Counted from the first letter of the stretch, positions 1 through 43,240 are shown. The stretch: 43,240 bases of DNA from a virus (IMGVR_UViG_3300000060_000001); one strand, 5' to 3'. Program-made: numbers and translations. The notes: a model not told the origin generated them from the sequence alone.

Positions 1-105
1 AGCAGCAGTCTCAACGTGGCAGTCGCTCACCGTCAAGTTACCCCAAGGGTTGCTGTATGCTGCTGAGGTGATAGGCTCCACAAGCGTAGCAGCACCCGCT
101 ATGTT
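1..105. repeat. End overlap. Nt 1-105 are identical to nt 43136-43240 (circular assembly closure; unique length 43,135 bp).
   Basis: Base-by-base comparison of both window ends. The overlap lies in frame inside the tailspike CDS. Confidence 0.9.
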
Positions 106-1568: not shown

Positions 1569-4500
1569 TTAGTCTCCTTTGACCGCTTCAGTCAGGGCGC
1601 GCACGCCGGGAACGATTGATAGTAGAGGTAGTGCCATTAATGTGTTACCTGTGGCTTGGCGGGCGTTGTTCATCACGCCCTCGGCGTCGCCTTGCAAGGC
1701 TGAGCGCCCTACGCCTGCTACGTTTCCTGCTACGCCATAGACACGGTCGAGGAACAGCAGGCCCGGCGCACCGAAGCTACGCTGCTGGCCAGTGAGCACG
1801 CCAGTAAACTCTGAGGCGAAGCCTATAGCACCAAGGTAGTTGAGAGCCTGTCCGGCAGTAGTGGTGATTGGTGACTTATCATCAAACCCCTTGCCAGATA
1901 TCACGTTGTTCGCAGCTGTGGCCAAGAACGCCAGTGGGTACTGATACGCCATGAGCGTAGCCATACCGAGCACACCGTCCCGGTTGATTGTGTTAACCAG
2001 AGTCTTGTTATGGGTAGCCGCTACGAAACGACGGAACGTGAACAGGAATTTACCTAGCGTGGAGAACTCAGCGAATGCCGGAATCTCCCCAAGGCGAGCG
2101 CGCACTACTGCGTCATCCATAGAGTTAATCATCACGACGCGGGCGCGGTTAAACACGCCCTCATCCCATGCGTCCAGCTTGGTGCCGTGTTTCGCTACCT
2201 GCGCCCGGATATCTGCCAGCAGCTGCGGGTTAGCCCCATAGCGCTGCATGGCTGCGATAGCCTTTGCGTCACCCTCTGCAGCCTTGCGCAGAGACTGAAC
2301 TACCAGTGCTGCGGTCGTACGCGTCTGGTGGAAGTGGATGTATTTCTGCATGTTAACGAACATGGTAGCATCGCGGGCGTGCTCCATACGCATAACCCAC
2401 GGTGTCTTATCCGCTGTGAACATGTCCTCGTAGTGCTCCATTACAGGACGCATACGAATGTCACCAGCCACTTGTGCTGTGAGGGCTTCCTCCACATCCA
2501 GCGCCAATTGACGACCTTCCAATGTAGTAGTTCTCAACTGAGCAAGAAGTGCGCGAGCTTCCGGTACTGTGCGCAGCATGTGCTTGACGGTGTTGACCAT
2601 GCCGAACCGCTGCATGATGGTGCCGTATTCGACCAGCTGCCACAATCCCGATGCAGCCAGACCAGTGGCCTGAGTGAGCGCTGAGAGCTGTCGCATGAAC
2701 TGCGGCATCTCTTCACCGACAGGAGCACCAAGGAAGTAGTTGAAGATGTTCTGCATATCGTTAACCGCTTGACGGCGCTGTACAGGGTCAGCGATGCTCT
2801 TTGACAGCTTCTCAATCATGGCAGAGCGCTCGGCATCCGAACCAAGCCCAGCCTGCTGCAGCGCAATGCGACCGTTAATACGGCGGTTGTAGCTGTCCAT
2901 CATGCTTGTGATACTGTCGTCAAACAGGTCACGCACCTGCACGCCGGGGGCAAGGTTATGCATCATGTCAATGTTGATACGACTCTTGAGCATTGGCGCT
3001 CTACCAGCGTCCTCGCCAGCGGAACGAAGGAGCGCTGAAGCACGGGCCTTGGCAGCCTCGTCGATTCCCGGCGCTTTGCTGATGATGTCGAGTAACTCAT
3101 CTGCACCTTCCTTGTTGATGATGTGACCTGAGTTGTCAATGCCGTAACCTTTACGGCGCGCGCGCTCAACCATAGCATACGCGATGACGTTGGCTGTAGG
3201 GCGGTCGCTCTTGATGCCACGCTGCACAGCTGTGGTCATCTGCTTCATGAACTCTTTCTTGCCGATGGCGGCTTCAATTTCCTCCACCTTGGACACGTTC
3301 ATTCGGCGCGGGTAGTAGTATGGGTTCTGCTTAGTGAAGCCCGGCTCTACCAGCCCGCTGCGCTCCAGCTCATCACCCACTGCACGGGAGTATTCCCCTA
3401 AGCGGTCCGTAGCCTGTGCCACACGCACGTTTGCACCCTTGAAGCTTGGGTCAATCATGCGGCGGTCCAGCTCAAGGCGCACAGCTTGCTCAAATTCCTG
3501 CTGCGCCCGGCGGTAGCCTACAGGGTCTTTGAAGCGCTGGATGTTGCCCCAGCCCTGTTCTGACAGAGCAGCGCGCAGGGTGTCCTCATATTGGTTCAGC
3601 AGCAAGCTGTGGCGGGCAGTAAGCTCGCGATGCACAGCAGCAGCGGACACACCCGATGGGTTAAGTGGGTCGTCCAGCAGACGCGCTGCGGCTGCCTCAC
3701 CTTCTGCCCCGTACCCTGCCACGCGTTTGAACAGGGAGAACTCAAGCCAAGGTCGTTTAGGCTGCGTGCCCAAGCCTTGCTGGGCTTGCTTCAAGCCTTT
3801 CGCAGCAGCAGCTTGTGCTGACGCAGGGACAGCCGATGCGCCCGGTGTAGGAGGAACATGTATACCTGCGGCCATAGCCACAGGCGAGCCAAACTGGCTA
3901 GGGTCAACATCAGGTGGATTGTTGGGGTCAAGTCCATTTCGTCTGGCAATCTCCGCTTTGAACTCTTCTGGAGTCATGTCCTCCAACCGCTTGGTTGGTA
4001 CAGGAGGTTTACCACGACCAATGACTGTAGCAGCGCCGTGCATGGCGGCTGCGAATATAATCTCGTTCTCTGAAATAGGGCGGGTGTCAGCTACCTGCGA
4101 CTGCACGCCAGCAGTGGCACCTGCACCGAGCGCCAGCGTAGCCATGCGCCCGGCCTTCACTGCCGTGGCTGCGCCAACCGATAACAGGTCAGCTGCCAGA
4201 TACAGAGGGTCTGCGAATTGCACGACGGCATTCATCAACGGGGCTGTCTGCGCCAGCTGCGCTCTGTTGCGCATGTCGGTCAGCTGGGATACTCGCCAAT
4301 CAAATTCTTGCTGTGAGGTAGACTTGAACAGGAAGTCCCGGTCATCCTCGCTAATAGGGATGCCCACAGTTTGCAGAGCCTCGTTGGGATGAAACTGTGG
4401 GTCTGTGGTGAAGCTTGGCTTATTGAACAGGGAATTGAATACACCGACGGTGTCCCAATTCTTCACGGAAGCCGACAAAGCCTGAGAGATTGGGGTGGCT

Positions 4501-15167: not shown

Positions 15168-15595
15168 TTAGGTTTCTCCAAATCTATGAAGCGGTTCTCC
15201 TGAACGTAAGGCCGCACCATATGGGAGTAACCGCACCAGCGCAAGCCCTCTGCTCGCGCTATGCCTTTCAGTACCCGGATGATTTCCCGTGAGCATCCAC
15301 GGTTCCGGTATTGTGGCCACACGTACATGGCCATGACAACAGCCATAGGGCCGACGTGCGGGTCAACAAGTTGTCCAATCTGAGCCACCGCCATCAGGGT
15401 GTCGTCCGGGTCTTCATCGTCGATGATGTACACGTCAACGCAACCATTTGCTGTAGCGTCGTACAGCAGCTCCACGATTGCGGTCGGCAGTAAGTCGGAC
15501 CAAGGGCGCTCCTGCTGGATGCCCTCGGCTACAGCCAGCCGTATGTCAGCTGGCATTGTAGTGTGCGATTCATTCGCCAATATAGTAGTCTTCAT
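15146..15595 (-). CDS. GNAT-family N-acetyltransferase, 149 aa
   Basis: Acetyl-CoA-binding-type motif VWPQYRNRGCSREIIRVLKGIARAEG (Q/R-x-x-G-x-G/A pattern). Confidence 0.7.
   Translation of the reverse strand: MKTTILANESHTTMPADIRLAVAEGIQQERPWSDLLPTAIVELLYDATANGCVDVYIIDDEDPDDTLMAVAQIGQLVDPHVGPMAVVMAMYVWPQYRNRGCSREIIRVLKGIARAEGLRWCGYSHMVRPYVQENRFIDLEKPKWVVSAT
15575..15595 (-). promoter_or_regulatory. Phage-promoter-like motif, copy D (ATGAAGACTACTATATTGGCG)
   Basis: Matches the 4-copy consensus ATGARRACTACTATMWTGS. Coincides with the GNAT start codon, so it may be fortuitous. Confidence 0.3.
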
Positions 15596-15906: not shown

Positions 15907-15935
15907 GCTCTCACTAGCATGATAGTAGTTTTCAT
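15907..15935 (-). promoter_or_regulatory. Candidate phage RNAP (late) promoter, copy B (ATGAAAACTACTATCATGCTAGTGAGAGC)
   Basis: Starts 6 nt after the RNAP stop codon, at the head of the structural operon. ACTACTAT resembles the T7 CTCACTAT core. It is followed by a purine-rich leader. A 22-nt exact match occurs at 37905-37926 on the opposite strand. Confidence 0.55.
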
Positions 15936-15941
15936 TGCACA

Positions 15942-18371
15942 TCAGCAGAAAAACTTGCTTGAACTATTCACAAGCTGCAAGTCCAGATTGCCCCGCTCAG
16001 GTGCTTCACGATTATATGCTAAAGCAAGCTGTTGGATAGGGTCGCATTGCTCGTACATCTCTACGAATTTTTGCCGAATAACCTTATGCATCAAGCCAGC
16101 ATGCGCCGCCGCACACCCGAAGGAGTCGTGGATGGACACCATGTATACCCCGTTATTCCACATCTCCCACAGGACTTTCATCATGTGGCTGGCATCCATA
16201 GAGTGAACAAAGTTCGGAGCAATCGCCGCTGCACACTTCCGTGCGTCCGGCTTATCCAGATACTCCCGCACCTTGATGCCGTGAATGCCCATCAGCTGCA
16301 GCTTCATGATGGTGTCTTTACTGGCCGCATACAGGTTAGGAACACGCAGCCCAGAAGGTGCCTCCCACTCCACGTACTCGCCCATAGACGCGGCCTCGTA
16401 CGCGATAGCCTGCAGCCACGCCATAAGCTCAGCAGCCTTAGGCACAACACGAGGTATAGCCGCCCACATGTACTCAGCGATGTACTGCGCGCACTCCAGC
16501 AGACTCTTGCCCTGTGGCAGCTTGATGTGGTTCTCCCGGAGGTACAGACAGTAGTAGTCGACCATGCCGTGCCGTGTCGCACCGTACACGTAGGTCATTA
16601 CAGGCTTCTTGGCCATAGCACGCTGCACACCGAGACTTACCAGCCAGCTACCCATCTGGGTAGGGTTGACTGCTTCATCGCGTTGTAGGGCTTCCAGCGC
16701 AGCCGTAGCCGTCTTGATGTAGATGTCAGCCTTGCGGCCCACATGGTCAATCAGGTTCACAGCTGCGCCGCCTACCTCATCGCGCAGCATTGCCGACAAG
16801 TGCTGCAGTCCCGAGCATGTGGCATCCCACTGTGTTACGACACGGCTTGGATATGCCTCAGGGTTGCCAGAATCCAACGCTCTGAGCAAGTCAGACGCAG
16901 CCGCCCATGCGCACAGAGGGCTGTCGGCTTCCGCCCAGAACGAGTCGTACGCCTCCGGCAGTCGGCAGGCTTCCCGCAGGCGCGGTAGCATCTTATCAAC
17001 GTACGCTGCCCGGTCACTGAAGTCTGTGGAGTCATAGCCGAAGCAGTTGGCTATATGTACCTTGAGCCAGAACATACCCTCTTTACCCAGCGGCACTGGC
17101 TCAGCCAGCTCCAGCAGCGCGCGTACAGCGTCGATGCCTTGAGGATTCAGGTTGGATGCATAGTAGCAGCGGCCCCGCGTATCCGCATACGTAGGCAGGT
17201 AGACGCGTTCGAACTCCGCATACTTGGCTGCCTCGTTGATAGCCGCGTTGAGCGCCACCATCTTGGAGGAGAACTTGCGCAGCTCCCCGTAGTACAGCCG
17301 GGTGCGCACCTTGTACTCCGTCAGCTCGGCGTCCATGCGCGCCTGCATCTCTTCAGGGAATTTGCTTACGTACTGCGCGATGGTAATGCCCGCAGGTATG
17401 GTGAACGGCAGTTTAGGCTTAACTGGTTCAGCGGGCAGATTCATCACGCCTGTGCGGTTGCGTAATAAAAACTCCAGCACCATCGGGTTAACCCTGAATG
17501 GGACGCTGGATAACATCATGAGCGGCTCTATAACTGGCAGCGGGTCGACACCCATCTTGCGGTAGTCGCGATGGCGCAGTCGGCTGATGGCTGTGTACAT
17601 TGCGGCCTGCCCCGGAGACTGCCACATACCGCTCAACCCGTCACGGGATATCTGCGTGGGTGGGACAATCATCGGAGGGTAGCACATCCCATCAGAGCGC
17701 GGGAGGTTAATCCAATCGTTCATGGCTACAAGCACATCGTCGTGCAGGTGGAAGTGCGCGGTGCCACGCATGCCCCGGTTGCCACCAACACGGGCTGTAG
17801 TGATTAGCCCGGTAGGCTCAACGCAGCGCATCATCAGCTTACCGATTGTGATGAGTGCCTGCTGTGGCAGCAGCTCCATACCCACCCCAACATTAGCAGC
17901 TGAGGCTCTGGCCTTGTGGTAGATGTGGTTGGCTGATTTGGACTTGGAGCGCCGGACGTCGCGGGCAACCTTCTCCATGTAGGCAGCCTGCTTTGCCCCG
18001 GCCTTGGCGGCCCGATTGTACGTAACCTCAGCCATCAAAGCCTTACCCATATCCTTGAGCAGTATGGTGGCTTGCTGCTCTGCGGCAGCTCCTGACACGG
18101 CCATGCCCAGCGCGAGGCTGGCGCATGTCCTTACGCCCAGCTCTCGCATGTATCCCCGGTACTGCGCGCCGAAGCCACGGGTGGTTTCATTCATGATTTT
18201 GTCCATAGCTGCTTCGACGGTAGGGTACGCCTCCGCCATCATGCGCTGCAGCATTGGTACAGAACCAGCGCGCCCACTGGCTAATGCCTCACGAATGTTG
18301 TCGAGCCAGCCCTGACGATGCAGGGCACGGGCTTCCTCTTCCATCTCAATTTGCTTTTGGACTAAATCCAT
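15942..18371 (-). CDS. T7-like single-subunit DNA-dependent RNA polymerase, 809 aa
   Basis: [26 protein letters not shown] matches T7 [37 protein letters not shown] is motif B. SIHDSFG is motif C. Confidence 0.95.
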   Translation of the reverse strand: [809 protein letters not shown]

Positions 18372-18828: not shown

Positions 18829-19309
18829 TTTGTTTCCTCAACTCAAGCTCAAGAATGAACAGCGCATTGCATGCAGCATGTGCTAGGTGGTGCAGGTTGG
18901 ATTCAGGGTCGAGTTCCTCACCCTTACCAACAGCAAGCAGGTGACGCAGCAGTGCTGACTTGTAACGCTCCTCACCCTCAGGCACAGTCTGCCAAGAGTG
19001 GGCTGCATACTTCTGCGCGCCGAAGGTAAGCACTTGACCTACAGCTTCCAGTGCATTTGGGCAACCGTCGAACAGCAGGGCCATTCGTGCTTTTCCGCCG
19101 TCATACTTCATACCACCAACACCAGCGGGCAGTGGTATGCTTGGTTCCTCTACAAAACGGTCTAGATAGAACACTTCGCCGGGTACATCGGGAACTACCC
19201 AGCGGCTACAATCATCACTTAGGTAACCCTGATACAGCTCACCAGTTTTTAATACGCCCTCGCGCCCCGTAGACTTGACGCAGCGCAGAGTAACACGTTT
19301 ATTTGTCAT
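18821..19309 (-). CDS. dATP/dGTP-pyrophosphohydrolase-like (DUF5664-type) protein with an N-terminal extra domain, 162 aa
   Basis: GGAGAA-N5-ATG at 19309. MKYDGGKARMALL...VLTFGAQKYAAHSW...RYKSALLRHL...DPESNLHHLAHAACNALF matches my recollection of the family pattern. Confidence 0.55.
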   Translation of the reverse strand: MTNKRVTLRCVKSTGREGVLKTGELYQGYLSDDCSRWVVPDVPGEVFYLDRFVEEPSIPLPAGVGGMKYDGGKARMALLFDGCPNALEAVGQVLTFGAQKYAAHSWQTVPEGEERYKSALLRHLLAVGKGEELDPESNLHHLAHAACNALFILELELRKQNA

Positions 19310-19808
19310 GGTATTCTCCGTCTTTATATTTAGCATTAGCGTGCACATACTCGTGGTTGTCTTCGTACTTGGTCACCTCGTACACGGTGATACCCAAGCT
19401 ACGCATGAACTCCACGATGTGCGGCAGGTCGTCAAAGGCGCACACAATATTCTCTATGCCGATGTCTTCCAGCGCAGCGCGCTTAACCTCAGTGTCCTGT
19501 CGGCAGTCACCAATCTCGCGCATAATGAGCTTGTCGTACAGCACGCCGTTCTCTTCCAGCCACTGCTCAGTTACTTCACGAGCAATAGCGCCACGCCCGG
19601 TCAGGATGACAATGCGATACGTTAGGGCCAGTGCGTTCACAATGTCAATGGTATCCTGAATGGGCGGGTCATTCAGTCCAGCCAAGTTGAACTCAGCCCA
19701 CGCCTCATCCAGATGTCGTCGCTCGGGCGGCGGCAACAAGTGCAAGCGCCAGCGGCCATCTGCAATCGTACCGTCTAAGTCAACTACCACGGTGTCTTTC
19801 AAGTGCAT
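19299..19808 (-). CDS. HAD-superfamily phosphatase (polynucleotide 3'-phosphatase / nucleotidase-like), 169 aa
   Basis: Motif I VVDLDGT, motif II ILTGR, motif III AFDD. GAGGAAG RBS. Confidence 0.75.
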   Translation of the reverse strand: MHLKDTVVVDLDGTIADGRWRLHLLPPPERRHLDEAWAEFNLAGLNDPPIQDTIDIVNALALTYRIVILTGRGAIAREVTEQWLEENGVLYDKLIMREIGDCRQDTEVKRAALEDIGIENIVCAFDDLPHIVEFMRSLGITVYEVTKYEDNHEYVHANAKYKDGEYHDK

Positions 19809-30528: not shown

Positions 30529-30549
30529 CGGCAATATAGTAGTTCTCAT
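30529..30549 (-). promoter_or_regulatory. Phage-promoter-like motif, copy C (ATGAGAACTACTATATTGCCG)
   Basis: Intergenic, at the boundary between the early genes and the replication module. Matches the consensus shared with 15907-15935. Confidence 0.45.
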
Positions 30550-30574
30550 AATGCCCACTAATATAATGGGCATT
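30550..30574 (-). promoter_or_regulatory. Intergenic hairpin (AATGCCCA-N9-TGGGCATT) directly upstream of promoter-like copy C
   Basis: 8-bp perfect stem. No U tract follows, so it is not a classical intrinsic terminator. Confidence 0.5.
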
Positions 30575-31249: not shown

Positions 31250-31543
31250 TTATTTACCCTCTTTGATTTTACGAATGGTGAACTTGTCACCCTCATACGC
31301 TTGGAATTCCACAGCAGTGTGGTGCCCCAGCTTGGTTACTACCAGACGGCTGCCGTCGTACTCGACCTCACCGATGCGCTGGATATAGCCGACATACGCC
31401 ACGACATAGTCGCCAATCTCCAGCTGCTCAGTGGTCTTGGTCACGTACTCAAACGGTGAGTCGTGCTCCTCAGGTCCGTCCGGGTACAGCACACTGTCTG
31501 TAATCCACTGCAGGAATTTCTCCCATTTACTTTTAATGCTCAT
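31250..31543 (-). CDS. Hypothetical protein, 97 aa
   Basis: ATGA overlap with the upstream stop. Confidence 0.7.
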   Translation of the reverse strand: MSIKSKWEKFLQWITDSVLYPDGPEEHDSPFEYVTKTTEQLEIGDYVVAYVGYIQRIGEVEYDGSRLVVTKLGHHTAVEFQAYEGDKFTIRKIKEGK

Positions 31544-31782
31544 GTTGTACCTCTCTTGAACTGAATATTAGTGCCGACCAATGTATACCAGTGTTGTTGT
31601 GCAAGCGTAATCCATTTCACTCGACGGCATACAACCCTAGACTGCACGGGATGCCCGCTGATAGCCCTGAGCACACAGCATTTATCGGTGCCGCGTGCCC
31701 AGCACATCATCCACCAATGGGTGCCATACGGGTCTACATAGACATTGCCTTGGCGGACGCGCGGCGTGTTTCTGCCATTCAT
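31540..31782 (-). CDS. Hypothetical W/C-rich basic protein, 80 aa
   Basis: ATGA overlaps at both ends. Confidence 0.6.
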   Translation of the reverse strand: MNGRNTPRVRQGNVYVDPYGTHWWMMCWARGTDKCCVLRAISGHPVQSRVVCRRVKWITLAQQHWYTLVGTNIQFKRGTT

Positions 31783-35305: not shown

Positions 35306-35827
35306 TCACGCTACCAGCTTGCGCAGGGCGTCCAGTGTTGCCTGTGGCACATGCACCTTGTCTGCGTCTTCCGGCAGGCCTTCACGGCGCAGCTTATCGG
35401 CCTGTTTAACGTGCTTCTCTGCACGGGCAATCAGGCGCTCCAGCTCGGTCTTCATGTCAAAGCCAGCAAACGGCGCTTCTGGCTTGCACTCCCACCACAT
35501 TTTGGCTTTAGCGTCGTCAATATGCGCTTTGATATACTCCGCGCCCTGCCAGCCGATAAAGCCATCTTTGTTGCCACCCAGCTTGCCTACCTGCAAGCCC
35601 CCGTACTGGACGAACCAGTCGACCAGTGCCTTACCGCGCACTGATTGGCCTAAGCCGTCGACCAAAGTCTGAGCACGAGTGTAGTCACCGTGCTTGTGAG
35701 CGTGCAGCAGGATGCCAACGGCGACATTCTGGATGTCTGCGCGCAGGGATTGGGCTTTCTTGAAAGCGCCGTCGATAGCTTTGTCCAGTGCTTCAGCAGT
35801 AGCGAAACTGGTATATTTAATGCTCAT
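35306..35827 (-). CDS. Hypothetical early protein, 173 aa
   Basis: GAGGTG-N6-ATG at 35827 (the track start at 35836 is GTG). Confidence 0.7.
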   Translation of the reverse strand: MSIKYTSFATAEALDKAIDGAFKKAQSLRADIQNVAVGILLHAHKHGDYTRAQTLVDGLGQSVRGKALVDWFVQYGGLQVGKLGGNKDGFIGWQGAEYIKAHIDDAKAKMWWECKPEAPFAGFDMKTELERLIARAEKHVKQADKLRREGLPEDADKVHVPQATLDALRKLVA

Positions 35828-35850
35828 GATATTCACCTCATTGGTTGATT

Positions 35851-36222: not shown

Positions 36223-36288
36223 TTAGCCAAAGACACGAAACAGCACACAGAGAAAAATGACATACACGACAAGCTCGAAGTGAGTCAT
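36223..36288 (-). CDS. Possible 21-aa hydrophobic micro-protein (MTHFELVVYVIFLCVLFRVFG)
   Basis: ATGA translational-coupling overlap with the stop of the 130-aa gene. One TM-length hydrophobic stretch. No other support. Confidence 0.25.
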   Translation of the reverse strand: MTHFELVVYVIFLCVLFRVFG

Positions 36289-36677
36289 TTTGCTACCCAC
36301 ACGTATTTCCCATCGTATGAGAAATCGCCGTTGTAGTCAGTTGGCATGGCATCAGCTGGTGTGCGCTCCGCTTTGCCAGCAGGCACCCAGCCAGCCTCAG
36401 GCTCGACAAGGTACGCATCCATAGTATCCATATCAATACTGAGGATGCAGTCCTGTTCAAACACCTGTTTAGCCAGTATCGCCAGACTCATAACCTCGCC
36501 TTCTGTGTGCACTTCCACACGGATAGACATTTCGTTATGACCTAAGTAGCATCCGGCCACTTGCACCGGATGCACTTGAAACAGGTCAGTAACAGCGCGA
36601 GATAACAGAGCATGCCGCGCCATATTGTTGATGCCGTCGTATTCGTCTCTGTGGGCACTCAGGAATACAGTAAACAT
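36285..36677 (-). CDS. Hypothetical early protein, 130 aa
   Basis: GAGGTG-N4-ATG at 36677 (the track start at 36689 is GTG inside the RBS). Confidence 0.7.
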   Translation of the reverse strand: MFTVFLSAHRDEYDGINNMARHALLSRAVTDLFQVHPVQVAGCYLGHNEMSIRVEVHTEGEVMSLAILAKQVFEQDCILSIDMDTMDAYLVEPEAGWVPAGKAERTPADAMPTDYNGDFSYDGKYVWVAK

Positions 36678-36700
36678 GGTACACCTCACTCATTGGTTAT

Positions 36701-37197: not shown

Positions 37198-37218
37198 GCT
37201 AGTGCCCTGATAGGCTAG
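37198..37218. repeat. Left arm of the 20-21-bp inverted repeat bracketing the first early ORF
   Basis: GCTAGTGCCCTGATAGGCTAG pairs with 37500-37520. As RNA this gives 20 contiguous pairs including one G-U. Confidence 0.85.
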
Positions 37219-37235
37219 CTCGCGCTAGCCATCAC

Positions 37236-37481
37236 TCAATCAACTATACCGCCACCTTTCATACGGGCGTCCAGTGCGGATTGAACATCCGCCAGTGCGT
37301 CATCTACCGCGCCAACGCTCATCCCAAGCACAGTCGATAACCAGTCGTCATCACCTGCAAAGGTAGAATCAATTTCGCGCAGCGTTTCGCGTGCGGCCTG
37401 CAGTTTCGCAGCCCACACAGCCATTTGAATCAGCTGCGCACGTGTATAGTCGAATTTGTACAAGTCAATGTTAATGCTCAT
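37236..37481 (-). CDS. First early protein, small and acidic, 81 aa
   Basis: GAGG-N9-ATG. ORF track. Function unknown. Confidence 0.7.
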   Translation of the reverse strand: MSINIDLYKFDYTRAQLIQMAVWAAKLQAARETLREIDSTFAGDDDWLSTVLGMSVGAVDDALADVQSALDARMKGGGIVD

Positions 37482-37499
37482 GATAGTAACCTCATTCAG

Positions 37500-37520
37500 T
37501 TAGCCTATCAGGACACTAGC
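37500..37520. repeat. Right arm of the inverted repeat bracketing the first early ORF
   Basis: TTAGCCTATCAGGACACTAGC is the reverse complement of 37198-37218 with 2 DNA mismatches, one of which is G-U compatible in RNA. Confidence 0.85.
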
Positions 37521-37524
37521 CAGA

Positions 37525-37536
37525 TTGTTAAAGAGC
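37525..37536 (-). promoter_or_regulatory. rrn-type boxA antitermination element (GCTCTTTAACAA)
   Basis: 12/12 match to the E. coli rrn boxA core GCUCUUUAACAA. It is in sense orientation in the early leader, 4 nt upstream of the 5' arm of the long-range stem. Confidence 0.6.
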
Positions 37537-37732
37537 GTTTGGGATGGCTCAACCTTCTTAGCTCAACGTGTATTGCGTTCGGTAGCTGGCTTATCCGCTC
37601 TTACGTCGAAACTCACCATGCGTTACATTGCTCATCGTCATATTGCGTCTGGTATGTCTTCAGGTACTTAGGCGTCACACCTTCCCCTAGCCATCCCCCG
37701 AATCACGTTACCCTGTGTTTCGGTGTGATTGA

Positions 37733-37762
37733 ATTACAGCACACAACCTAAAAACCTTGCAA
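37733..37762 (-). promoter_or_regulatory. Sigma70-type early promoter (TTGCAA-18 nt-TGTAAT) with an upstream UP-like AT tract
   Basis: -35 at 37757-37762 and -10 at 37733-37738. A second TTGCAA lies at 37770-37775. The tract AGAAAATAATTCGAATTTATTT (37774-37795) lies immediately upstream. Confidence 0.55.
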
Positions 37763-37792
37763 GCTCTTTTTGCAAATAAATTCGAATTATTT

Positions 37793-37886
37793 TCTAAGTG
37801 TATGTATTCAGTAGTAATTTAGTTGAATGGATAAAACATACAGATACCGTTTAAACCCTATTTTTACCATCGTCTAAGTGTATGTA
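37793..37886. repeat. Two direct copies of TCTAAGTGTATGTA (37793-37806 and 37873-37886) in the AT-rich island
   Basis: Exact 14-mers 80 bp apart. This is the only strongly AT-rich segment of the genome. Confidence 0.8.
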
Positions 37887-37901
37887 ATACATAGTTAATT
37901 C

Positions 37902-37930
37902 ATAAAAACTACTATCATGCTAGTGACAGC
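37902..37930 (+). promoter_or_regulatory. Inverted copy (A) of the phage-promoter-like motif (ATAAAAACTACTATCATGCTAGTGACAGC), oriented opposite to all genes
   Basis: 22-nt exact match (37905-37926) to the minus strand at 15911-15932. The wider alignment is 27/29 by eye. It is followed on the plus strand by a purine-rich, T-poor tract like the leader after copy B. Confidence 0.5.
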
Positions 37931-38165
37931 TATCAGCTGGAGCTGGCGATGAGCAAGCGTGAAACGCTGTGAGGCGAATCGGTGAGCGTGAGGAGTCGAG
38001 AGACGTGAGTCTCTGAGACGACGCGCAGCGAACGTGTACCAGTGACAGCGTGTGTACCAGTAGAAGTAACAGGAGTAGACAGTGACGGTGTGACCGTGAC
38101 ACTGACAGCAGGTGAGAGTCCTGTACAGAGTAGAGAGTGAACCAGTGGTGCAGCGAGAGTGTACC

Positions 38166-38206
38166 ATCCCGCACCATCCAACCATCCCCGTGTATCCCCG
38201 TATCCC
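38166..38206. repeat. Five closely spaced ATCC(C) units. On the gene-sense strand these read GGGAT..GGGGAT..GGGGAT..GGAT..GGGAT, a G-run cluster.
   Basis: Units start at 38166, 38176, 38184, 38194 and 38202. Confidence 0.75.
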
Positions 38207-38226
38207 GTCGTGTGCATCACGACAAG

Positions 38227-38266
38227 GCAAAAGAGATTGAGAGCAGGTGACAGCAAAAGAGATTGA
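38227..38266. repeat. Direct repeat GCAAAAGAGATTGA x2 (38227-38240 and 38253-38266)
   Basis: Exact 14-mers 26 bp apart. These are the only A/T-containing islands inside the T-depleted tract. Confidence 0.8.
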
Positions 38267-38536
38267 TACGACCGCGCGCACTCTCCGATACCACAGACAC
38301 GGTGTGACCGTCCCCATACCATAGAGCGCACACAGTACACAGCCATAGGCGCAACGTACGGTACCGCCACGCCACGCACAGCATGAGGCAATGCGATTGC
38401 ATAGCCCATAGCCCAGCGCCCCGCACAGCGCGATACAGAGCGCCTGACACGCTACGCCATCCACGACGGCACAGCAGCACAGCCAGCGGCAGCCCATCGC
38501 GCAATAATGACCGCGCGCGAAGAGCGACGGCAGCCA

Positions 38537-38549
38537 CCCCCTACGGGGG
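38537..38549. other. CCCCC-TAC-GGGGG hairpin near the presumed genome end
   Basis: Perfect 5-bp G/C stem. It is reminiscent of the CCCCCATAGGGGG element that I recall near the T7 left end. Confidence 0.5.
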
Positions 38550-38642
38550 CATCGCGCGGCTTATGGGTCGAGGGACCACCACGCACAATTACCCAATTTT
38601 CAAGCCCTGACTTTTACGCCAAGGCCTGTTCAATGACCTAGG

Positions 38643-39179
38643 TTATAGTGTTTGGCAATACGCGGCGCAGCGCTTGGCGCGCGCTACCAGTGCTGCCCTG
38701 TACTTGACTATGGTAGGCGCAGTGCTGGCATTCAGGAACTCAACGCGTATGTCACAGATGGACTGAGCAAGGGCGCGAGGTTCCATGCGCTTTGATTTTG
38801 CCACGGATAGAGGACCGAGAGCGCCGTCTTGTGCAACCCCGCAGGCCCGCTGTAGAGCTTTAACAGCCCGCTGCACGCCGGAGTTGACGGCGAAGTCGAA
38901 GACAGCGCATGCAACCGCAGGGTGTAGCTCGTCACCACGGATAGGGGCAAAGTAGTCTCGTCTGTAAATTGCTTCTGCTTGCTCTTTGGTGAGAGCTTTG
39001 ACAGGCACACAAATAGTCCCGCCAGTACCAGTAGGGACACCACAAGCATACCCATCCAGCTTGCCATCACGAGCGTCAGAGATACCATGATTAGTTTCGC
39101 CTCCAGTGTCACCGGGCAGCTTGGTGTAGCCACCCTCGGCCAGCCCGGTGAACTTCATACATAATTCAAAATTTGTCAT
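38643..39179 (-). CDS. Endolysin: GH108-type N-acetylmuramidase with a PG_binding_3-like C-terminal domain, 178 aa
   Basis: LAEGGYTKLPGDTGGETNHGIS contains the GH108 EGGY..GG.T..GI pattern. QDGALGPLS is a peptidoglycan-binding motif. There is no N-terminal hydrophobic or SAR segment. Confidence 0.8.
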   Translation of the reverse strand: MTNFELCMKFTGLAEGGYTKLPGDTGGETNHGISDARDGKLDGYACGVPTGTGGTICVPVKALTKEQAEAIYRRDYFAPIRGDELHPAVACAVFDFAVNSGVQRAVKALQRACGVAQDGALGPLSVAKSKRMEPRALAQSICDIRVEFLNASTAPTIVKYRAALVARAKRCAAYCQTL

Positions 39180-39562
39180 TGCATACCCATTAAAGCCTGA
39201 ATGAATGATAGCAGTGAGGTTAAGTCACCCGCTTTGATGGCGAGGTATATACCGCTACACAAGGAGGCCATGAGCAAGCACCACTTGACCACCGCCGCGC
39301 CAGTCTTGACTAACTTGCCAATTGTGCTCATGGTCTTCTGGATGTCCTGTATTTGCTCGACTACTTGAAGCTGCTGCTGTATCTGCTGCCAGCGGTAGTC
39401 ATTCTCCGCTAGCTTGGCCAGCATGGCCGAATCACCTTTCTCAAGGCTACCGATTTGCACATCATGTTTGTCGAGGCGAGATTCTACGGATTGCATACGG
39501 GCCTCCACAGCACCCATACGCGAGTGGATATTAGGAGCTGGCTCCTTCGTCGGTTCCGTCAT
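39176..39562 (-). CDS. Coiled-coil protein with a single C-terminal TM helix. Holin candidate of unusual topology. 128 aa.
   Basis: AAGGTG RBS. TM segment AAVVKWCLLMASLCSGIYLAI. ATGA overlap with the endolysin start. The functional call rests on position only. Confidence 0.4.
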   Translation of the reverse strand: MTEPTKEPAPNIHSRMGAVEARMQSVESRLDKHDVQIGSLEKGDSAMLAKLAENDYRWQQIQQQLQVVEQIQDIQKTMSTIGKLVKTGAAVVKWCLLMASLCSGIYLAIKAGDLTSLLSFIQALMGMQ

Positions 39563-40355: not shown

Positions 40356-42119
40356 TTATCGGACACGGCGACGTGTGCCGCGTTGTTGTTTATGGTGACT
40401 GCGCCATTTAGCGTCGTCGTATCCCATAGGGTTCTCTATGAACTCACGCGCAGCAGCGGCTACACGTTTGTTCTGCTCTTCATGCTCATCCTGCTGCAGT
40501 GCTTCCACATGCAGGTATACTGCCGCCGACAGTGTCTCCACTCGGTCGTCGTGTGGGATAGAATCCCGGTCAAGCGTTATGTTCTGCATCTGCCAGAACA
40601 GGCTGTACTCCCTACCACCATTGGCCATGCCACGGCATAGGCGCACATCCTCCTCAAGCACACTCCAGTGCATCACCAAGCGATGTCGTTCAAGTACCGC
40701 ATTGAGGCGGTTAATAACTCGCACCTCTTTCTGCCCGGAGCTGTACACGCCGGAGCAGCCAAGAACCAGCCCCTGACGTCTAATCTCCCCGCGATACATG
40801 TTGACTACGGTCCCGTGCCCCATGTTGTCCTCTATGATGAGGTCGAGCACGCCGAGCTTGTTGCACCACTCTACCGCCGCCTTAATGTTCTCTTCCGTCT
40901 GCCCGCCGTGGTACACGTACATACCAATGACGTGGATATACGGGCCGACAGCAGCTGTGGCAATGATAACTGATTCGTCGTCCCCACCACCAGCAGGGTC
41001 AAGAAACGCCTTGGTATTCGTGAATGGTACATAGGTGTCCGAGAAGTCTGCGGCCATGTACAGCTGAGCGCGTGCCAGCGGGAAATCCAGAGGCAGCTCG
41101 GCTATGTGCCGGGGGTTATTTGACCAATGCAGAATCTCAGGTGCTGAGCCTCCTGCTCCTTGGAACATAATCAGGTCGGATATCTTGAGGCGCTGCTTGA
41201 GCGCATCTGACAGTGACGTATCCAGCATGAACTGCAGCTGGAAGCCAGCCTGCTGGTAGTCTCGTTCGTTCTGCAGCTGCTTCTCTTCCGAGTAGCGCTG
41301 TGGGTCCGTCTGTGCACCGCGATTGCCCAGCAGGCCGTAGCCTGTGCGCAGCTCCGGGTGCCCGTCCATCTTCTGCTTGATGTATGGGGCCAGACAGCCG
41401 CCATACCGCTCTTCCTCTTCCGGCGTAGGGTAGCGCCCCGGCCAGATGCGTACGTCGAAGCCACGCTGAGGCAGCGAGTTGTAGATGGAGTCCTGCGTCT
41501 GCGGTGTACCTAGGTACAGAATCTCTGCACCGTCGTTGGCGATAGCCGCAAACTCTTTGGTCAGTGTGTGGATACGATTTCGGTTCGCCGGGGAGCTACC
41601 ATTGCTGGTAGTCTCCACGTCGTCTGCAATGAGCAGAGAGACGTGGTTACCCTGAAGCTGGCCGAATATACCGACTGCCTTGATGGATGGCTGCTTATCC
41701 GGGATACGGAACGCATGGTGCACGTCAAAGCCGTCAGTAAACGACGTACGTGCACCAGCGCGCGTCTCCGGGCGCAGCCACTCCAGCCTATCCCACTGCA
41801 TGATAGCAGACACTATGGCGTGCGAGATGGTACCCGCATAGTCGTCAGAACCAGACACTACCAGTACGGTAGCGTTGGGTATGACGACGAACTCGTACAG
41901 AGCACGAGCAATGCCGATGGTGGACTTGGCCTCACCGCGCTGTGCCATTACGCACTTGTTCTTCAGTGAGCGCTCGGCCATGTAGCGGCCAATGTCCAGC
42001 TGCATCTCAGTGAGGTCAAAGCCCAGCCATGCGAAGTAGTCGTGCAGGAACAGCGGGAAGTTGTTCTCATAGTGAGCACGAACTATCCCGGCCATCACCA
42101 TTCGGCGTTGCATATCCAT
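40356..42119 (-). CDS. terL: Terminase large subunit (T7 gp19-like), 587 aa
   Basis: Walker-A-like MAQRGEAKST. Size and position. TAATG overlap with the small subunit. Confidence 0.9.
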   Translation of the reverse strand: MDMQRRMVMAGIVRAHYENNFPLFLHDYFAWLGFDLTEMQLDIGRYMAERSLKNKCVMAQRGEAKSTIGIARALYEFVVIPNATVLVVSGSDDYAGTISHAIVSAIMQWDRLEWLRPETRAGARTSFTDGFDVHHAFRIPDKQPSIKAVGIFGQLQGNHVSLLIADDVETTSNGSSPANRNRIHTLTKEFAAIANDGAEILYLGTPQTQDSIYNSLPQRGFDVRIWPGRYPTPEEEERYGGCLAPYIKQKMDGHPELRTGYGLLGNRGAQTDPQRYSEEKQLQNERDYQQAGFQLQFMLDTSLSDALKQRLKISDLIMFQGAGGSAPEILHWSNNPRHIAELPLDFPLARAQLYMAADFSDTYVPFTNTKAFLDPAGGGDDESVIIATAAVGPYIHVIGMYVYHGGQTEENIKAAVEWCNKLGVLDLIIEDNMGHGTVVNMYRGEIRRQGLVLGCSGVYSSGQKEVRVINRLNAVLERHRLVMHWSVLEEDVRLCRGMANGGREYSLFWQMQNITLDRDSIPHDDRVETLSAAVYLHVEALQQDEHEEQNKRVAAAAREFIENPMGYDDAKWRSHHKQQRGTRRRVR

Positions 42120-42433: not shown

Positions 42434-43240
42434 TTACCGTTCGGCGGTTATCGTGATGAACTCCAGAGAGCCACCGTTGGTCGTCGTGGCAGCAGACGCT
42501 GTAGCGCGGATGTCTACAATCTGGCCTGCGTTAAGGTTACCCAAGTCAGCATGGACGTGTGCAATCGTAGCCGACGGCGAGCTTAGTGTCTTCAGCGTGC
42601 TGTCTACGTACACATCCAGCTGCAGGTTGCCCGATGCAACCCGAAGCGTACCATCCACCGTGACGTCGTTAAGTCCACCCGGTGGCACAGTGAAGCGGCC
42701 TGCTGAGTAGTTGGTATTCCAGCGGTATTGGTCATCCGATACCTGCGGCTGCGTGAAGTTCACGACGCCAGCTGAAGTGCCGATAGCCTGACTGTTGGCG
42801 TTCGTAGCCCGGAACACAATACGACGTGGGAAGTGCAGTATACCGCCGGACACAGCCTGCAGACCTTTCACGAAGTTCTTACCGAAGCCCGCTGGGTCGT
42901 AGTAGACGTGCGTGGTATCAGGAGCCTGAATGTTAGGCTGGTTGCGCACAACGCCGCAGTACATATTGATTTCATCCGTGGTGATGCGCCCGGCGTAAGT
43001 GTTCGCGGATGAGTGCACTGAGATGAATGGGCCATTGTTCTGCGAATGATAGCCGCGCAGCCCACGGAACGTCACGTTAGCGTTATCGCTCAGTGGAGTA
43101 GGGACGCTATCCAAGTTGGCGATTAGGCACAGAGCAGCAGCAGTCTCAACGTGGCAGTCGCTCACCGTCAAGTTACCCCAAGGGTTGCTGTATGCTGCTG
43201 AGGTGATAGGCTCCACAAGCGTAGCAGCACCCGCTATGTT
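42434..43240 (-). CDS. Tailspike, C-terminal part. This is the continuation of 1-1563 across the circular junction. Nt 43136-43240 duplicate nt 1-105.
   Basis: Frame continuity checked: ...SDCHVETAA|ALCLIANLD. The track's internal start (MEPITS) is an artefact of the window edge. Confidence 0.85.
   Translation of the reverse strand, partial: NIAGAATLVEPITSAAYSNPWGNLTVSDCHVETAAALCLIANLDSVPTPLSDNANVTFRGLRGYHSQNNGPFISVHSSANTYAGRITTDEINMYCGVVRNQPNIQAPDTTHVYYDPAGFGKNFVKGLQAVSGGILHFPRRIVFRATNANSQAIGTSAGVVNFTQPQVSDDQYRWNTNYSAGRFTVPPGGLNDVTVDGTLRVASGNLQLDVYVDSTLKTLSSPSATIAHVHADLGNLNAGQIVDIRATASAATTTNGGSLEFITITAER
43136..43240. repeat. End overlap, second copy (identical to nt 1-105)
   Basis: Direct comparison. 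Confidence 0.9.

What the first reader, a model, noticed from the sequence alone, without database searches (positions are those of the whole stretch)
37902..37930. An inverted copy of the late-promoter-like element points away from all genes into the terminal tract
A 22-nt exact match, AAAACTACTATCATGCTAGTGA, occurs at 37905-37926 on the plus strand. Counting flanks the match is 27/29. The other copy sits on the minus strand just after the RNAP gene (15911-15932). In both places the motif is followed, in its own orientation, by a purine-rich, pyrimidine-poor stretch full of GTGAG/GAGC words. If the element is a phage RNAP promoter, this copy would fire antisense to the entire genome. It would produce a U-poor non-coding RNA across the presumed terminal repeat and then run antisense to the endolysin gene. 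Possible roles are transcription-primed replication of the genome end (compare T7 phiOL and the primary origin), concatemer-junction processing or packaging, or late antisense control of lysis genes. T7's analogous phiOL points in the gene direction, so the inversion is unexpected.
Basis: partly seen in the sequence, partly recalled or inferred. Interest (0 to 1): 0.65.

Follow-up and report, generated by a model that had tools for sequence, protein, structure and literature searches.

The report
Backward-facing phage promoter at genome end
A phiKMV-type phage carries a copy of its own RNA-polymerase promoter pointing backwards, from just before the early genes into the terminal repeat; the same arrangement has been mapped experimentally in Pseudomonas phage LUZ19, so this is a new example of a known but functionally unexplained feature.

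Summary
A 22-nt exact inverted repeat (27/29 with flanks) lies at 15911-15932(-), 10 nt after the RNA polymerase (RNAP) stop codon, and at 37905-37926(+). It is the longest inverted repeat in the window. It belongs to a five-member family, RRACTACTATNNTG. Four copies face the gene direction at typical promoter positions; one is inverted.

The window is a circularly permuted phiKMV-type podophage genome with all genes on the minus strand. The inverted copy lies between the predicted terminal repeat and the AT-rich early-promoter region. All 10 related genomes examined (Bonnellvirus, Waewaevirus) have an inverted copy of their own post-RNAP motif at the same place. The motif co-varies between the sites and with the RNAP specificity loop. 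The backward transcript is purine-rich and U-poor in every genome.

The arrangement is already published. In LUZ19, ONT-cappable-seq mapped an antisense phage-RNAP promoter (P001) in the early region, and it is conserved in 15 other Phikmvvirus species (PMC10914365). KP34 and T7 have a forward promoter at the corresponding left-end position.

Verdict: very probably a real phage-RNAP promoter making a non-coding transcript towards the genome end or concatemer junction. It is a new member of a known kind. Its function is unresolved.

The parts
37902..37930 (+). Inverted (leftward) phage-RNAP promoter copy, called P_inv here. The exact 22-mer is 37905-37926 and the family core RRACTACTATNNTG is 37906-37919. 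The predicted TSS lies within about 37916-37923 (inferred).
   Evidence: Positional homologues occur in 10/10 relatives and as LUZ19 P001.
15907..15935 (-). Forward promoter copy immediately after the RNAP gene (the major late promoter). It is identical to P_inv over 22 nt.
   Evidence: It occupies the same position as KP34 S1, LUZ19 P007 and the annotated LIMEzero promoter at 20330.
15578..15591 (-). Second post-RNAP promoter-family member (AGACTACTATATTG), overlapping the start of the 149-aa ORF.
   Evidence: Homologous second copies occur in J8-65 (19869), LIMEzero (20741), glasur (21113) and RZ4 (20159).
30532..30545 (-). Middle promoter-family member (GAACTACTATATTG). It follows a hairpin and lies ahead of the DNA-metabolism genes.
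   Evidence: Homologues occur in LIMEzero (7295, annotated as a phage promoter), J8-65 (5663), glasur (6972) and RZ4 (5803).
2520..2533 (-). Candidate fifth family member (GAACTACTACATTG, 1 mismatch) inside the 1034-aa internal virion protein gene.
   Evidence: Its offset in the gene (about 2140 nt) matches LIMEzero 33867 in ORF45 (about 2127 nt). LUZ19 P009 is likewise in the structural region.
37927..38168 (+). Purine-rich tract (R = 0.64, T = 0.17) transcribed first from P_inv. Non-coding.
   Evidence: The same composition is found in all relatives and in LUZ19.
38290..38571 (.). Predicted direct terminal repeat, collapsed to one copy in this circular assembly. The left terminus is predicted at 38571, reading downwards. 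The inner boundary is uncertain by about 15 nt. On the plus strand T = 10%.
   Evidence: In alignment A1, base 1 of J8-65 (annotated repeat 1-259) aligns to window 38571. The conserved terminal sequence CCCTCGACCC...CCCCCGTAGGGGG is also seen in KP34 and LUZ19. The boundaries are inferred, not measured.
37733..37900 (-). AT-rich region behind P_inv. It holds the first early host-type promoter (-35 TTGCAA at 37762..37757, -10 TGTAAT at 37738..37733) and two TACATACACTTAGA repeats.
   Evidence: The promoter was identified by homology with the J8-65 sequence TTGCAA-N17-TGTAAT. The consensus scan with strict rules did not call it, so it is inferred.

Best explanation
The element at 37902-37930(+) is a functional promoter for the phage's own single-subunit RNA polymerase. 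It is a flipped copy of the major late promoter that lies just after the RNAP gene.

It sits about 140 nt upstream (in gene direction) of the first early host-type promoter and about 650 nt from the predicted left terminus, at the boundary between the AT-rich early-promoter region and a purine-biased tract. Once the phage RNAP has been made (middle or late infection), the promoter should start a non-coding, purine-rich, U-poor transcript near 37919-37923. That transcript runs leftward through the tract and the terminal repeat. On unit-length DNA it runs off the end. On concatemers it crosses the junction and continues antisense into the lysis and terminase genes. No intrinsic terminator or T7 class II signal stands in its way.

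It is the positional and functional counterpart of LUZ19 promoter P001.

Most likely role (inferred, about 0.3-0.35 on its own): the act of transcription, or the antisense RNA, works in cis at the concatemer junction. It would oppose or neutralise late read-through transcripts that would otherwise enter the early region. Nothing else stops them after the endolysin gene.

What is shown here: the sequence family, its positions, its conservation and co-variation, and the transcript composition. What is inferred: promoter activity in this phage, the TSS, the repeat boundaries and the biological role. The confidence of 0.75 refers to the promoter identity and the direction and nature of the transcript, not to the role.
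For: 1. The repeat is exact over 22 nt and far beyond chance.

2. It belongs to a family of five RRACTACTATNNTG sites (0.6 expected). Four face the gene direction: after the RNAP gene (two copies), ahead of the DNA-metabolism genes, and inside the internal-virion-protein gene. This matches the experimentally mapped layouts of LUZ19 (P001 antisense; P007 and P008 after the RNAP gene; P009 in the structural region; PMC10914365) and of KP34.

3. All 10 relatives examined carry an inverted copy of their own post-RNAP motif 535-656 nt from the left end or endolysin stop (717 nt in the window).

4. Lineage-specific changes appear in the forward and inverted copies together: GTGTC in altidsur, GCTAC in Kc261, and AG versus TG between J8-65 and smaasur, whose genomes are 93% identical.

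5. The RNAP segment aligned to the T7 specificity loop changes in step with the motif. It is identical in glasur, RZ4 and ROV85, which share one motif.

6. Downstream there are only nonsense ORFs, no Rfam hit and no terminator.

7. The leftward transcript is purine-rich (R = 0.62-0.70) and U-poor (0.06-0.16) in the window, in all 10 relatives and in LUZ19, although the sequences are not alignable by megablast.

8. No terminator-like site lies between the endolysin stop and the early region. Late read-through across junctions is therefore plausible. This is the rationale for the insulation idea that Putzeys et al. proposed for P001.
Against: - There are no transcription data for this phage or for any Bonnellvirus or Waewaevirus.
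- The two identical copies differ from the other three family members at the two bases after CTAT (CA versus AT), so their start site and strength are uncertain.
- The co-variation with the specificity loop is confounded with phylogeny.
- For the insulation role, from my own recollection of the literature (Ma and McAllister 2009, not checked here), T7-type RNAPs can pass one another head-on. That would weaken a simple roadblock.
- Insulation does not explain why the transcript must be U-poor, nor why the spacing to the repeat edge is about 260-275 nt in LUZ19, J8-65 and KP34.
- KP34 and T7 manage with a forward promoter at the equivalent place. GAP227 shows no detectable copy.
Confidence: 0.75

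Rival explanations
1. Junction processing or packaging signal. Leftward transcription from P_inv into the terminal repeat marks or opens the concatemer junction for terminase. This could work through a stalled or colliding RNAP, or through a stable R-loop formed by the purine-rich, U-poor RNA. It would be the phiKMV-type counterpart of T7 phiOR and the RNAP pause at the concatemer junction, approached from the other side.
For: - P_inv is the only dedicated promoter aimed at the junction. Only 71 nt separate the endolysin stop from the predicted terminus.
- The promoter lies at a similar distance from the repeat's inner edge in phages with annotated repeats: LUZ19 264 nt, J8-65 276 nt, KP34 259 nt.
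- The conserved U-poor, purine-rich composition suits uninterrupted transcription and stable RNA:DNA hybrids (hybrid stability is general knowledge).
[quoted passage not shown] T7 phiOR fires towards the junction.
Against: - No T7-type class II pause signal (ATCTGTT) lies near the junction.
- KP34 has a forward promoter at the same spot, which cannot transcribe the adjacent repeat.
- There is no direct evidence for R-loops or for terminase-RNAP contact in this group.
Confidence: 0.22
2. Replication origin or primer. Transcription from P_inv either primes leftward DNA synthesis or opens the adjacent AT-rich DNA behind it through negative supercoiling. This would resemble the T7 primary origin and the secondary origin at phiOL.
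For: - The promoter directly abuts a roughly 150-nt AT-rich block (A+T about 0.69 over the 200 nt on that side).
- It occupies the position of T7 phiOL, between the terminal repeat and the early promoters. That phiOL can act as a secondary origin is my own knowledge, not checked here.
- A purine-rich RNA would make a persistent primer or R-loop.
Against: - In T7 origins the AT-rich segment lies downstream of the promoter. Here it lies upstream, and the transcript enters GC-rich DNA. This defining feature is not met.
- Cumulative GC skew shows no origin-like turning point here. It simply follows the coding strand.
- A leftward leading strand would copy only about 650 nt on a monomer.
Confidence: 0.15
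3. Antisense control of the lysis and terminase genes. In concatemers the P_inv transcript pairs with late mRNAs for endolysin, spanin, holin or terminase and tunes lysis timing.
For: - No terminator lies between P_inv and the lysis genes.
- In LUZ19 the antisense transcripts overlap gp47-gp49 at the right end.
Against: - The transcript must first cross about 720 nt of non-coding DNA whose composition, rather than sequence, is conserved. That points to a role within the tract itself.
- It needs concatemeric or circular templates.
- There is no conserved pairing target.
Confidence: 0.08
4. Not a promoter. The inverted 22-mer would be a binding site for another protein (its core is a 10/12 palindrome), a recombination site, or a neutral relic of a duplication.
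For: - Near-palindromic core (sequence).
- Only two copies are identical. The other family members differ at the two bases after CTAT.
Against: - The palindrome is specific to this phage. Relatives have non-palindromic motifs at both sites.
- The motif tracks the RNAP specificity loop and resembles the T7-type ...CTATAG... in close relatives.
- Conservation of position and orientation across genomes with only 67-78% RNAP identity argues against a relic.
- The LUZ19 counterpart has a mapped TSS.
Confidence: 0.07

Closest known systems
LUZ19 promoter P001 and its counterparts in 15 other Phikmvvirus species (Putzeys et al. 2024, microLife, PMC10914365)
   Same: - A phage-RNAP promoter with the same motif as the promoters just after the RNAP gene, but on the opposite strand to all genes.
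- It lies between the terminal repeat and the early sigma70 promoters. I verified the LUZ19 motif at 736-748(-), with the repeat annotated at 1-472.
- The overall layout also matches: two promoters after the RNAP gene and one in the structural region.
- The leftward transcript is purine-rich and U-poor (R = 0.68, T = 0.06).
   Different: - The motif sequence is unrelated (GgtTATGTCACacACAnnGG versus AAACTACTATCATG).
- The phage lineage differs: Krylovirinae on Pseudomonas versus a Bonnellvirus-like phage whose known relatives infect enterobacteria. RNAP identity to the Drulisvirus phages, the next-best group of hits, is only about 34%.
- This phage also has a middle promoter ahead of the DNA-metabolism genes.
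- LUZ19 has TSS data; this phage has none.
T7 phiOL (and KP34 strong promoter S2 at 475-490)
   Same: A phage-RNAP promoter in the non-coding left end, between the terminal repeat and the early host promoters. T7 phiOL is at 405 with A1 at 498. KP34 S2 is at 475-490 with the repeat at 1-216. The spacing from the repeat edge is similar, about 245-276 nt (the T7 figure uses the 160-bp repeat length from memory).
   Different: Both point in the gene direction. The window's copy and those of its 10 relatives point towards the genome end. In T7 the AT-rich DNA is downstream of phiOL; here it is behind the promoter.
T7 A0, the minor leftward E. coli promoter at nt 224
   Same: It directs transcription leftward towards the left genome end from within the non-coding left region (annotated in NC_001604).
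   Different: It is used by the host RNAP, so it would act early. It is not a copy of a phage promoter, and it lies much closer to the end.
T7 phiOR and the concatemer-junction pause
   Same: A phage-RNAP promoter firing into the concatemer junction or terminal repeat with no gene of its own to express. In T7 this is linked to maturation and packaging.
   Different: phiOR approaches the junction from the right end of the preceding genome, in the gene direction. No ATCTGTT class II signal is present here.

Membership tests
T7-type single-subunit RNAP promoter | A conserved motif of about 20 nt that recurs in one genome far more often than chance. | tested here: met
   RRACTACTATNNTG gives 5 sites against 0.6 expected, with 0/100 shuffles reaching 5. 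The 22-nt exact pair had 0/100 shuffles with any match.
T7-type single-subunit RNAP promoter | Copies sit at the heads of gene blocks in the gene direction, including directly after the RNAP gene in phiKMV-type phages. | tested here: met
   Forward copies lie at 15931, 15591, 30545 and 2533. These positions match KP34 and LUZ19.
T7-type single-subunit RNAP promoter | The motif co-varies with the cognate RNAP's promoter-recognition elements. | tested here: met
   Each motif variant goes with a distinct sequence in the segment aligned to T7 RNAP residues 739-770. Identical loops go with identical motifs. This is correlative and confounded with phylogeny.
T7-type single-subunit RNAP promoter | Specific initiation by the phage RNAP in vitro or in vivo. 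| not testable with these tools
   It needs transcription assays or 5'-end mapping.
phiKMV-type antisense left-end promoter (LUZ19 P001) | The same motif as the post-RNAP promoters, on the strand opposite to all genes. | tested here: met
   Identical over 22 nt to the first post-RNAP copy. All ORFs with homologues are on the minus strand.
phiKMV-type antisense left-end promoter (LUZ19 P001) | Located between the direct terminal repeat and the early host promoters. | tested here: met
   It is about 650 nt from the homology-predicted terminus and about 143 nt from the predicted early -35 element. The repeat boundaries are inferred, not measured.
phiKMV-type antisense left-end promoter (LUZ19 P001) | Conserved in position and orientation among relatives. 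| tested here: met
   10/10 Bonnellvirus and Waewaevirus genomes.
phiKMV-type antisense left-end promoter (LUZ19 P001) | Antisense transcripts that extend through the repeat into the right-end genes. | not testable with these tools
   The only evidence available is indirect: no terminator-like site at 37200-39300 on either strand and no ATCTGTT nearby.
T7-type replication origin (phage promoter plus AT-rich segment) | An AT-rich segment immediately downstream of the promoter. | tested here: not met
   Downstream the DNA is purine-rich (37923-38165: G+C 0.56, R 0.64; 37923-38022: G+C 0.58). The AT-rich block lies upstream of the promoter in its own orientation.
T7 concatemer-junction class II pause or termination signal | ATCTGTT in the non-template strand at the junction. 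| tested here: not met
   The window has only two occurrences, at 14722 and 33295, neither near the junction. RNAPs this diverged may use another signal.

The most novel reading that the evidence does not exclude
The leftward promoter together with its U-poor, purine-rich tract would be a dedicated genome-end device. The phage RNAP would lay down a hyperstable R-loop across the terminal repeat. That R-loop would prime or license duplication of the repeat, or mark the concatemer junction for terminase. On this reading it is a mechanistic alternative to T7's phiOR and junction pause, and it would explain three things together: the orientation, the conserved transcript composition, and the spacing of about 260-275 nt from the repeat edge.
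Probability: 0.2. Interest if true: 0.7.

Novelty: new member of a known kind. Interest (0 to 1): 0.4.

Why it matters
- It extends an experimentally mapped but unexplained feature, an antisense phage-RNAP promoter at the left genome end, from Pseudomonas Phikmvvirus to an unrelated group of phiKMV-type phages that infect Enterobacterales.
- The promoter sequence evolves freely in these phages, yet position, orientation and transcript composition are kept. That pattern argues for a real function in genome-end biology: insulation, packaging or replication.
- It yields a cognate promoter set for a new single-subunit RNAP, which may be useful for orthogonal expression systems.
- It gives a practical annotation rule. 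The A-poor left-end tract produces long false ORFs, which are annotated as genes in several GenBank relatives.

Tried and rejected
- **Closer relatives.** Megablast of both regions against the phage collection found nothing useful. An exact 18-mer scan of IMG/VR gave one chance hit in unrelated coding DNA. An RNAP-based IMG/VR scan returned only J8-65, Lidtsur and one altidsur-like contig. An endolysin-based metagenome scan returned one 1.6-kb contig too short to reach the promoter. The exact 22-mer variant therefore could not be tested in a near relative.
- **Weaker copies.** A mismatch search with the full 22-mer (up to 7 mismatches) found none. The three further family members appeared only after reading the homologous intergenic regions.
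- **A 6-nt insertion.** I first read the window's motif as the Kc261-type promoter with CATGCT inserted. I rejected this in favour of an ungapped alignment with the window's own other copies, which differ at only two bases.
- **Homology between the two purine-rich tracts.** Not significant.
- **Structured non-coding RNA.** No Rfam hit. Folding z-scores were -2.08 and +0.21.
- **Coding potential of the tract.** Only Cys/Trp-rich nonsense ORFs.
- **T7 class II pause signal.** Absent near the junction.
- **Universality.** KP34 has the left-end promoter in the forward direction. GAP227 (Cronosvirus) shares no 11-mer or longer between its post-RNAP region and its first 1500 nt.
- **LUZ19 supplementary TSS tables.** Not held.

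Full report
**1. Observation**

The 22-mer AAAACTACTATCATGCTAGTGA occurs exactly twice, at 15911-15932 on the minus strand and at 37905-37926 on the plus strand. No shuffle of the window gave any match, even with three mismatches allowed. With flanks the match is 27/29. It is the longest inverted repeat in the window (15907-15935 and 37902-37930).

The minus-strand copy begins 10 nt after the stop codon of an 809-aa ORF (18371..15942). That ORF is a T7-type RNA polymerase (RNAP): Pfam RNA_pol E = 2.7e-87 and 66-78% identity to annotated phage RNAPs.

The 10/12 palindrome in the core is real, but the whole element is asymmetric.

The compositional claim is also real:
- 37917-38168 is the most purine-rich 243-nt stretch of the plus strand (R = 0.64).
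- The 125 nt after the forward copy have R = 0.66.

U-depletion is moderate in the first 250 nt (16-17%) and strong further on (10% in 38291-38574). The two downstream tracts share composition only, with no alignable homology.

**2. Genome context**

All genes with homologues are on the minus strand.

Bases 1-105 are identical to 43136-43240. The window is therefore a circularly closed assembly of a genome of about 43.1 kb.

In gene direction the order is:
- non-coding left end;
- early genes, including a SAM lyase (36689..36285);
- DNA-metabolism genes;
- RNAP;
- structural genes;
- T7-type terminase (42119..40356);
- lysis genes, ending with a GH108 endolysin (39179..38643).

This is the phiKMV-type layout. 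The nearest relatives are Bonnellvirus (J8-65, the '-sur' coliphages, Kc261, RZ4, ROV85) and Waewaevirus LIMEzero, at 67-78% RNAP identity. There is no near-identical DNA in the phage, IMG/VR or metagenome collections.

Alignment with relatives places the first base of the J8-65 genome (annotated repeat 1-259) at window 38571, 71 nt after the endolysin stop. It also shows the conserved terminal sequence CCCTCGACCC...CCCCCGTAGGGGG, which is seen at the left ends of KP34 and LUZ19 too.

The terminal repeat is therefore predicted at about 38571 down to about 38290. This is an inference.

An early host-type promoter homologous to the J8-65 sequence TTGCAA-N17-TGTAAT lies at 37762..37733.

The inverted element thus sits between the repeat-plus-tract and the AT-rich early-promoter region. 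It points towards the genome end.

**3. A promoter family, not a two-copy repeat**

I read the intergenic regions that are homologous to the promoter sites of the relatives. This revealed ATGAGAACTACTATATTGCC after a hairpin ahead of the DNA-metabolism genes, and ATGAAGACTACTATATTGG about 340 nt after the RNAP gene.

The pattern RRACTACTATNNTG has five sites in the window against 0.6 expected:
- 30545..30532(-), ahead of the DNA-metabolism genes;
- 15931..15918(-), just after the RNAP gene;
- 15591..15578(-), the second post-RNAP copy;
- 2533..2520(-), with one mismatch, inside the internal-virion-protein gene at the same relative offset as a LIMEzero site;
- 37906..37919(+), the inverted copy.

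LIMEzero, J8-65, glasur and RZ4 have the same four- or five-site layout with their own motifs. Two of the LIMEzero sites are annotated as 'putative phage specific promoter'.

**4. Comparative test**

In all 10 relatives examined, the best match to the post-RNAP motif in the left-end region is on the opposite strand, 535-656 nt from the left end or endolysin stop.

The motif differs between lineages:
- ATGAAAGTGACTATAGTGATA in glasur, RZ4 and ROV85;
- GTGTC in altidsur;
- GCTAC in Kc261;
- AATGAAAGTAACTGT in J8-65, smaasur and Lidtsur;
- ATGAAGGCAAGCACTAAGGA in LIMEzero.

Within each genome the inverted copy is identical or nearly identical to one of the two post-RNAP copies. Even the single-base difference between J8-65 (..CTGTAGTG) and smaasur (..CTGTTGTG) appears in both the inverted and a forward copy.

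The RNAP segment that aligns with the T7 specificity loop (residues 739-770) changes in step with the motif. It is identical where the motif is identical.

These are the patterns expected of cognate promoters. They are hard to reconcile with a relic or with an unrelated binding site.

**5. The transcript**

Downstream of the inverted copy there are only Cys/Trp-rich nonsense ORFs. There is no Rfam family, only marginal excess structure (z = -2.08), no intrinsic terminator-like site on either strand within 37200-39300 and no T7 class II signal.

By analogy with the relatives (CTATAG|TG, TTGG|ACAAC) and the LUZ19 motif (ACAnnGG), the start should lie within 37916-37923. This is inferred.

The RNA would run about 650 nt to the predicted terminus. 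On concatemers it would continue antisense into the lysis genes.

Its purine-rich, U-poor composition is conserved in all 10 relatives and in LUZ19 (R = 0.62-0.70 and U = 0.06-0.16 in the first 250 nt). This holds even though the sequences themselves are not conserved.

The composition changes sharply at the promoter. The 200 nt on the other side are AT-rich in the window and its 10 relatives; in LUZ19 that flank is G+C-rich and only the strand bias ends there.

KP34, whose left-end promoter faces forward, shows a weaker bias (top-strand A = 0.16).

**6. What is known**

Putzeys et al. (microLife 2024, PMC10914365) mapped four LUZ19 RNAP promoters by ONT-cappable-seq. Two lie directly after the RNAP gene and one lies in the structural region. 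[quoted passage not shown]

Its antisense transcripts reach gp47-gp49 at the right end. Equivalent motifs, including the antisense one, were found in 15 other Phikmvvirus species. The authors suggested that it prevents transcription from running on into the early genes on circularised genomes.

I confirmed the LUZ19 motif at 736-748(-), 264 nt inside the annotated 472-bp repeat.

In KP34 (Lu et al. 2019, PMC6834552) the left-end strong promoter at 475-490 is active in vitro. I found it to be in the forward orientation.

In T7, phiOL (405) is forward. A minor E. coli promoter, A0 (224), fires leftward, and phiOR (39229) fires towards the right end.

The papers held on Bonnellvirus do not mention promoters. 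The LIMEzero record does not annotate the inverted site.

The arrangement is therefore known as a kind, but apparently undescribed for this lineage.

**7. Mechanism**

I am fairly confident (about 0.75-0.85) that the element is an active phage-RNAP promoter giving a non-coding leftward transcript. The role is open.

I rank the possible roles as follows:
- **Insulation or neutralisation of late read-through at concatemer junctions.** This comes first because no terminator separates the endolysin gene from the early region, and because the inverted copy is a duplicate of the major late promoter.
- **A packaging or junction-processing role.** This would be analogous to T7 phiOR and the junction pause. 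It would better explain the U-poor tract and the conserved spacing of about 260-275 nt from the repeat edge.
- **Replication priming.** The T7 origin architecture is not met, because the AT-rich DNA lies behind the promoter.
- **Antisense control of the lysis genes.** This is possible but does not explain the conserved tract.

**8. Verdict**

The feature is a new member of a known kind (a LUZ19 P001-type antisense left-end promoter). Interest is moderate.

The new elements are:
- extension of the arrangement to a second, distant phiKMV-type clade;
- co-variation evidence for the promoter assignment;
- the conserved transcript composition and spacing, which make the function question more testable.

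Noticed in passing
window 1-105 and 43136-43240: The two ends of the window are 100% identical over 105 nt. The contig is a circularly closed assembly (true length about 43,135 nt with one copy of the terminal repeat), permuted relative to the physical genome.
   Followed up: partly
window 38227-38240 and 38253-38266; J8-65 L002 about 270-285: GCAAAAGAGATTGA occurs twice, 26 nt apart. Its complement (TCAATCTCTTTTGC) aligns with a conserved (C/G)TATCTATCTCTTTT block that lies just inside the inner edge of the annotated J8-65 terminal repeat and is shared by Lidtsur and Kc261. It may be a repeat-boundary or terminase-related signal.
   Followed up: partly
window 37793-37820 and 37873-37900; LIMEzero L001 about 665-680: TCTAAGTGTATGTA is repeated 80 nt apart in the AT-rich block between the inverted promoter and the early promoter. 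Its complement is TACATACACTTAGA. LIMEzero has ATACATACACTTA at the equivalent place. Function unknown.
   Followed up: no
window 38537-38549 (CCCCCTACGGGGG) and 38565-38574: The terminal sequence CCCTCGACCC and a 5-bp GC hairpin about 25 nt inside the predicted left end are conserved in J8-65, and with small differences in LIMEzero, KP34 and LUZ19. From memory, T7 has a similar CCCCCATAGGGGG.
   Followed up: partly
window 37895-38537 (minus strand); ROV85 L014 788-1968; Lidtsur L016 1054-1461; Kc261 L018 918-1457: The gene strand is A-poor here, so stop codons are rare and long ORFs appear (200, 158 and 106 aa; Cys/Trp-rich nonsense). Equivalent ORFs are annotated as hypothetical proteins in several GenBank relatives and are probably false.
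   Followed up: partly
LUZ19 L006, J8-65 L002, KP34 L005, T7 L033: The distance from the inner edge of the terminal repeat to the left-end phage promoter is similar whatever the promoter orientation: LUZ19 264 nt, J8-65 276 nt, KP34 259 nt, and T7 about 245 nt (using the 160-bp repeat length from memory).
   Followed up: partly
window 35817-35842, 37471-37496, 31533-31558, 19299-19324: A 26-nt family is repeated (TTAATGCTCATGATATTCACCTCATT on the plus strand). On the gene strand it reads AGGTGA-N5-ATGAGCATTAA, that is, near-identical ribosome-binding sites and first codons (MSIK...) for several early and middle genes.
   Followed up: no
GAP227 L031 1-200: The left end of the Cronobacter phage GAP227 record has the opposite strand bias (top strand A = 0.36, T = 0.10, GAGAG/CCCAGAGA repeats). 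No copy of its post-RNAP sequence was detected there. The genome-end architecture differs in Cronosvirus, or the record does not start at the physical end.
   Followed up: no
window 30548-30570 (minus strand): The hairpin GCCCATTATATTAGTGGGC lies immediately before the middle promoter. LIMEzero annotates the same terminator-then-promoter pair at 7255-7313.
   Followed up: no
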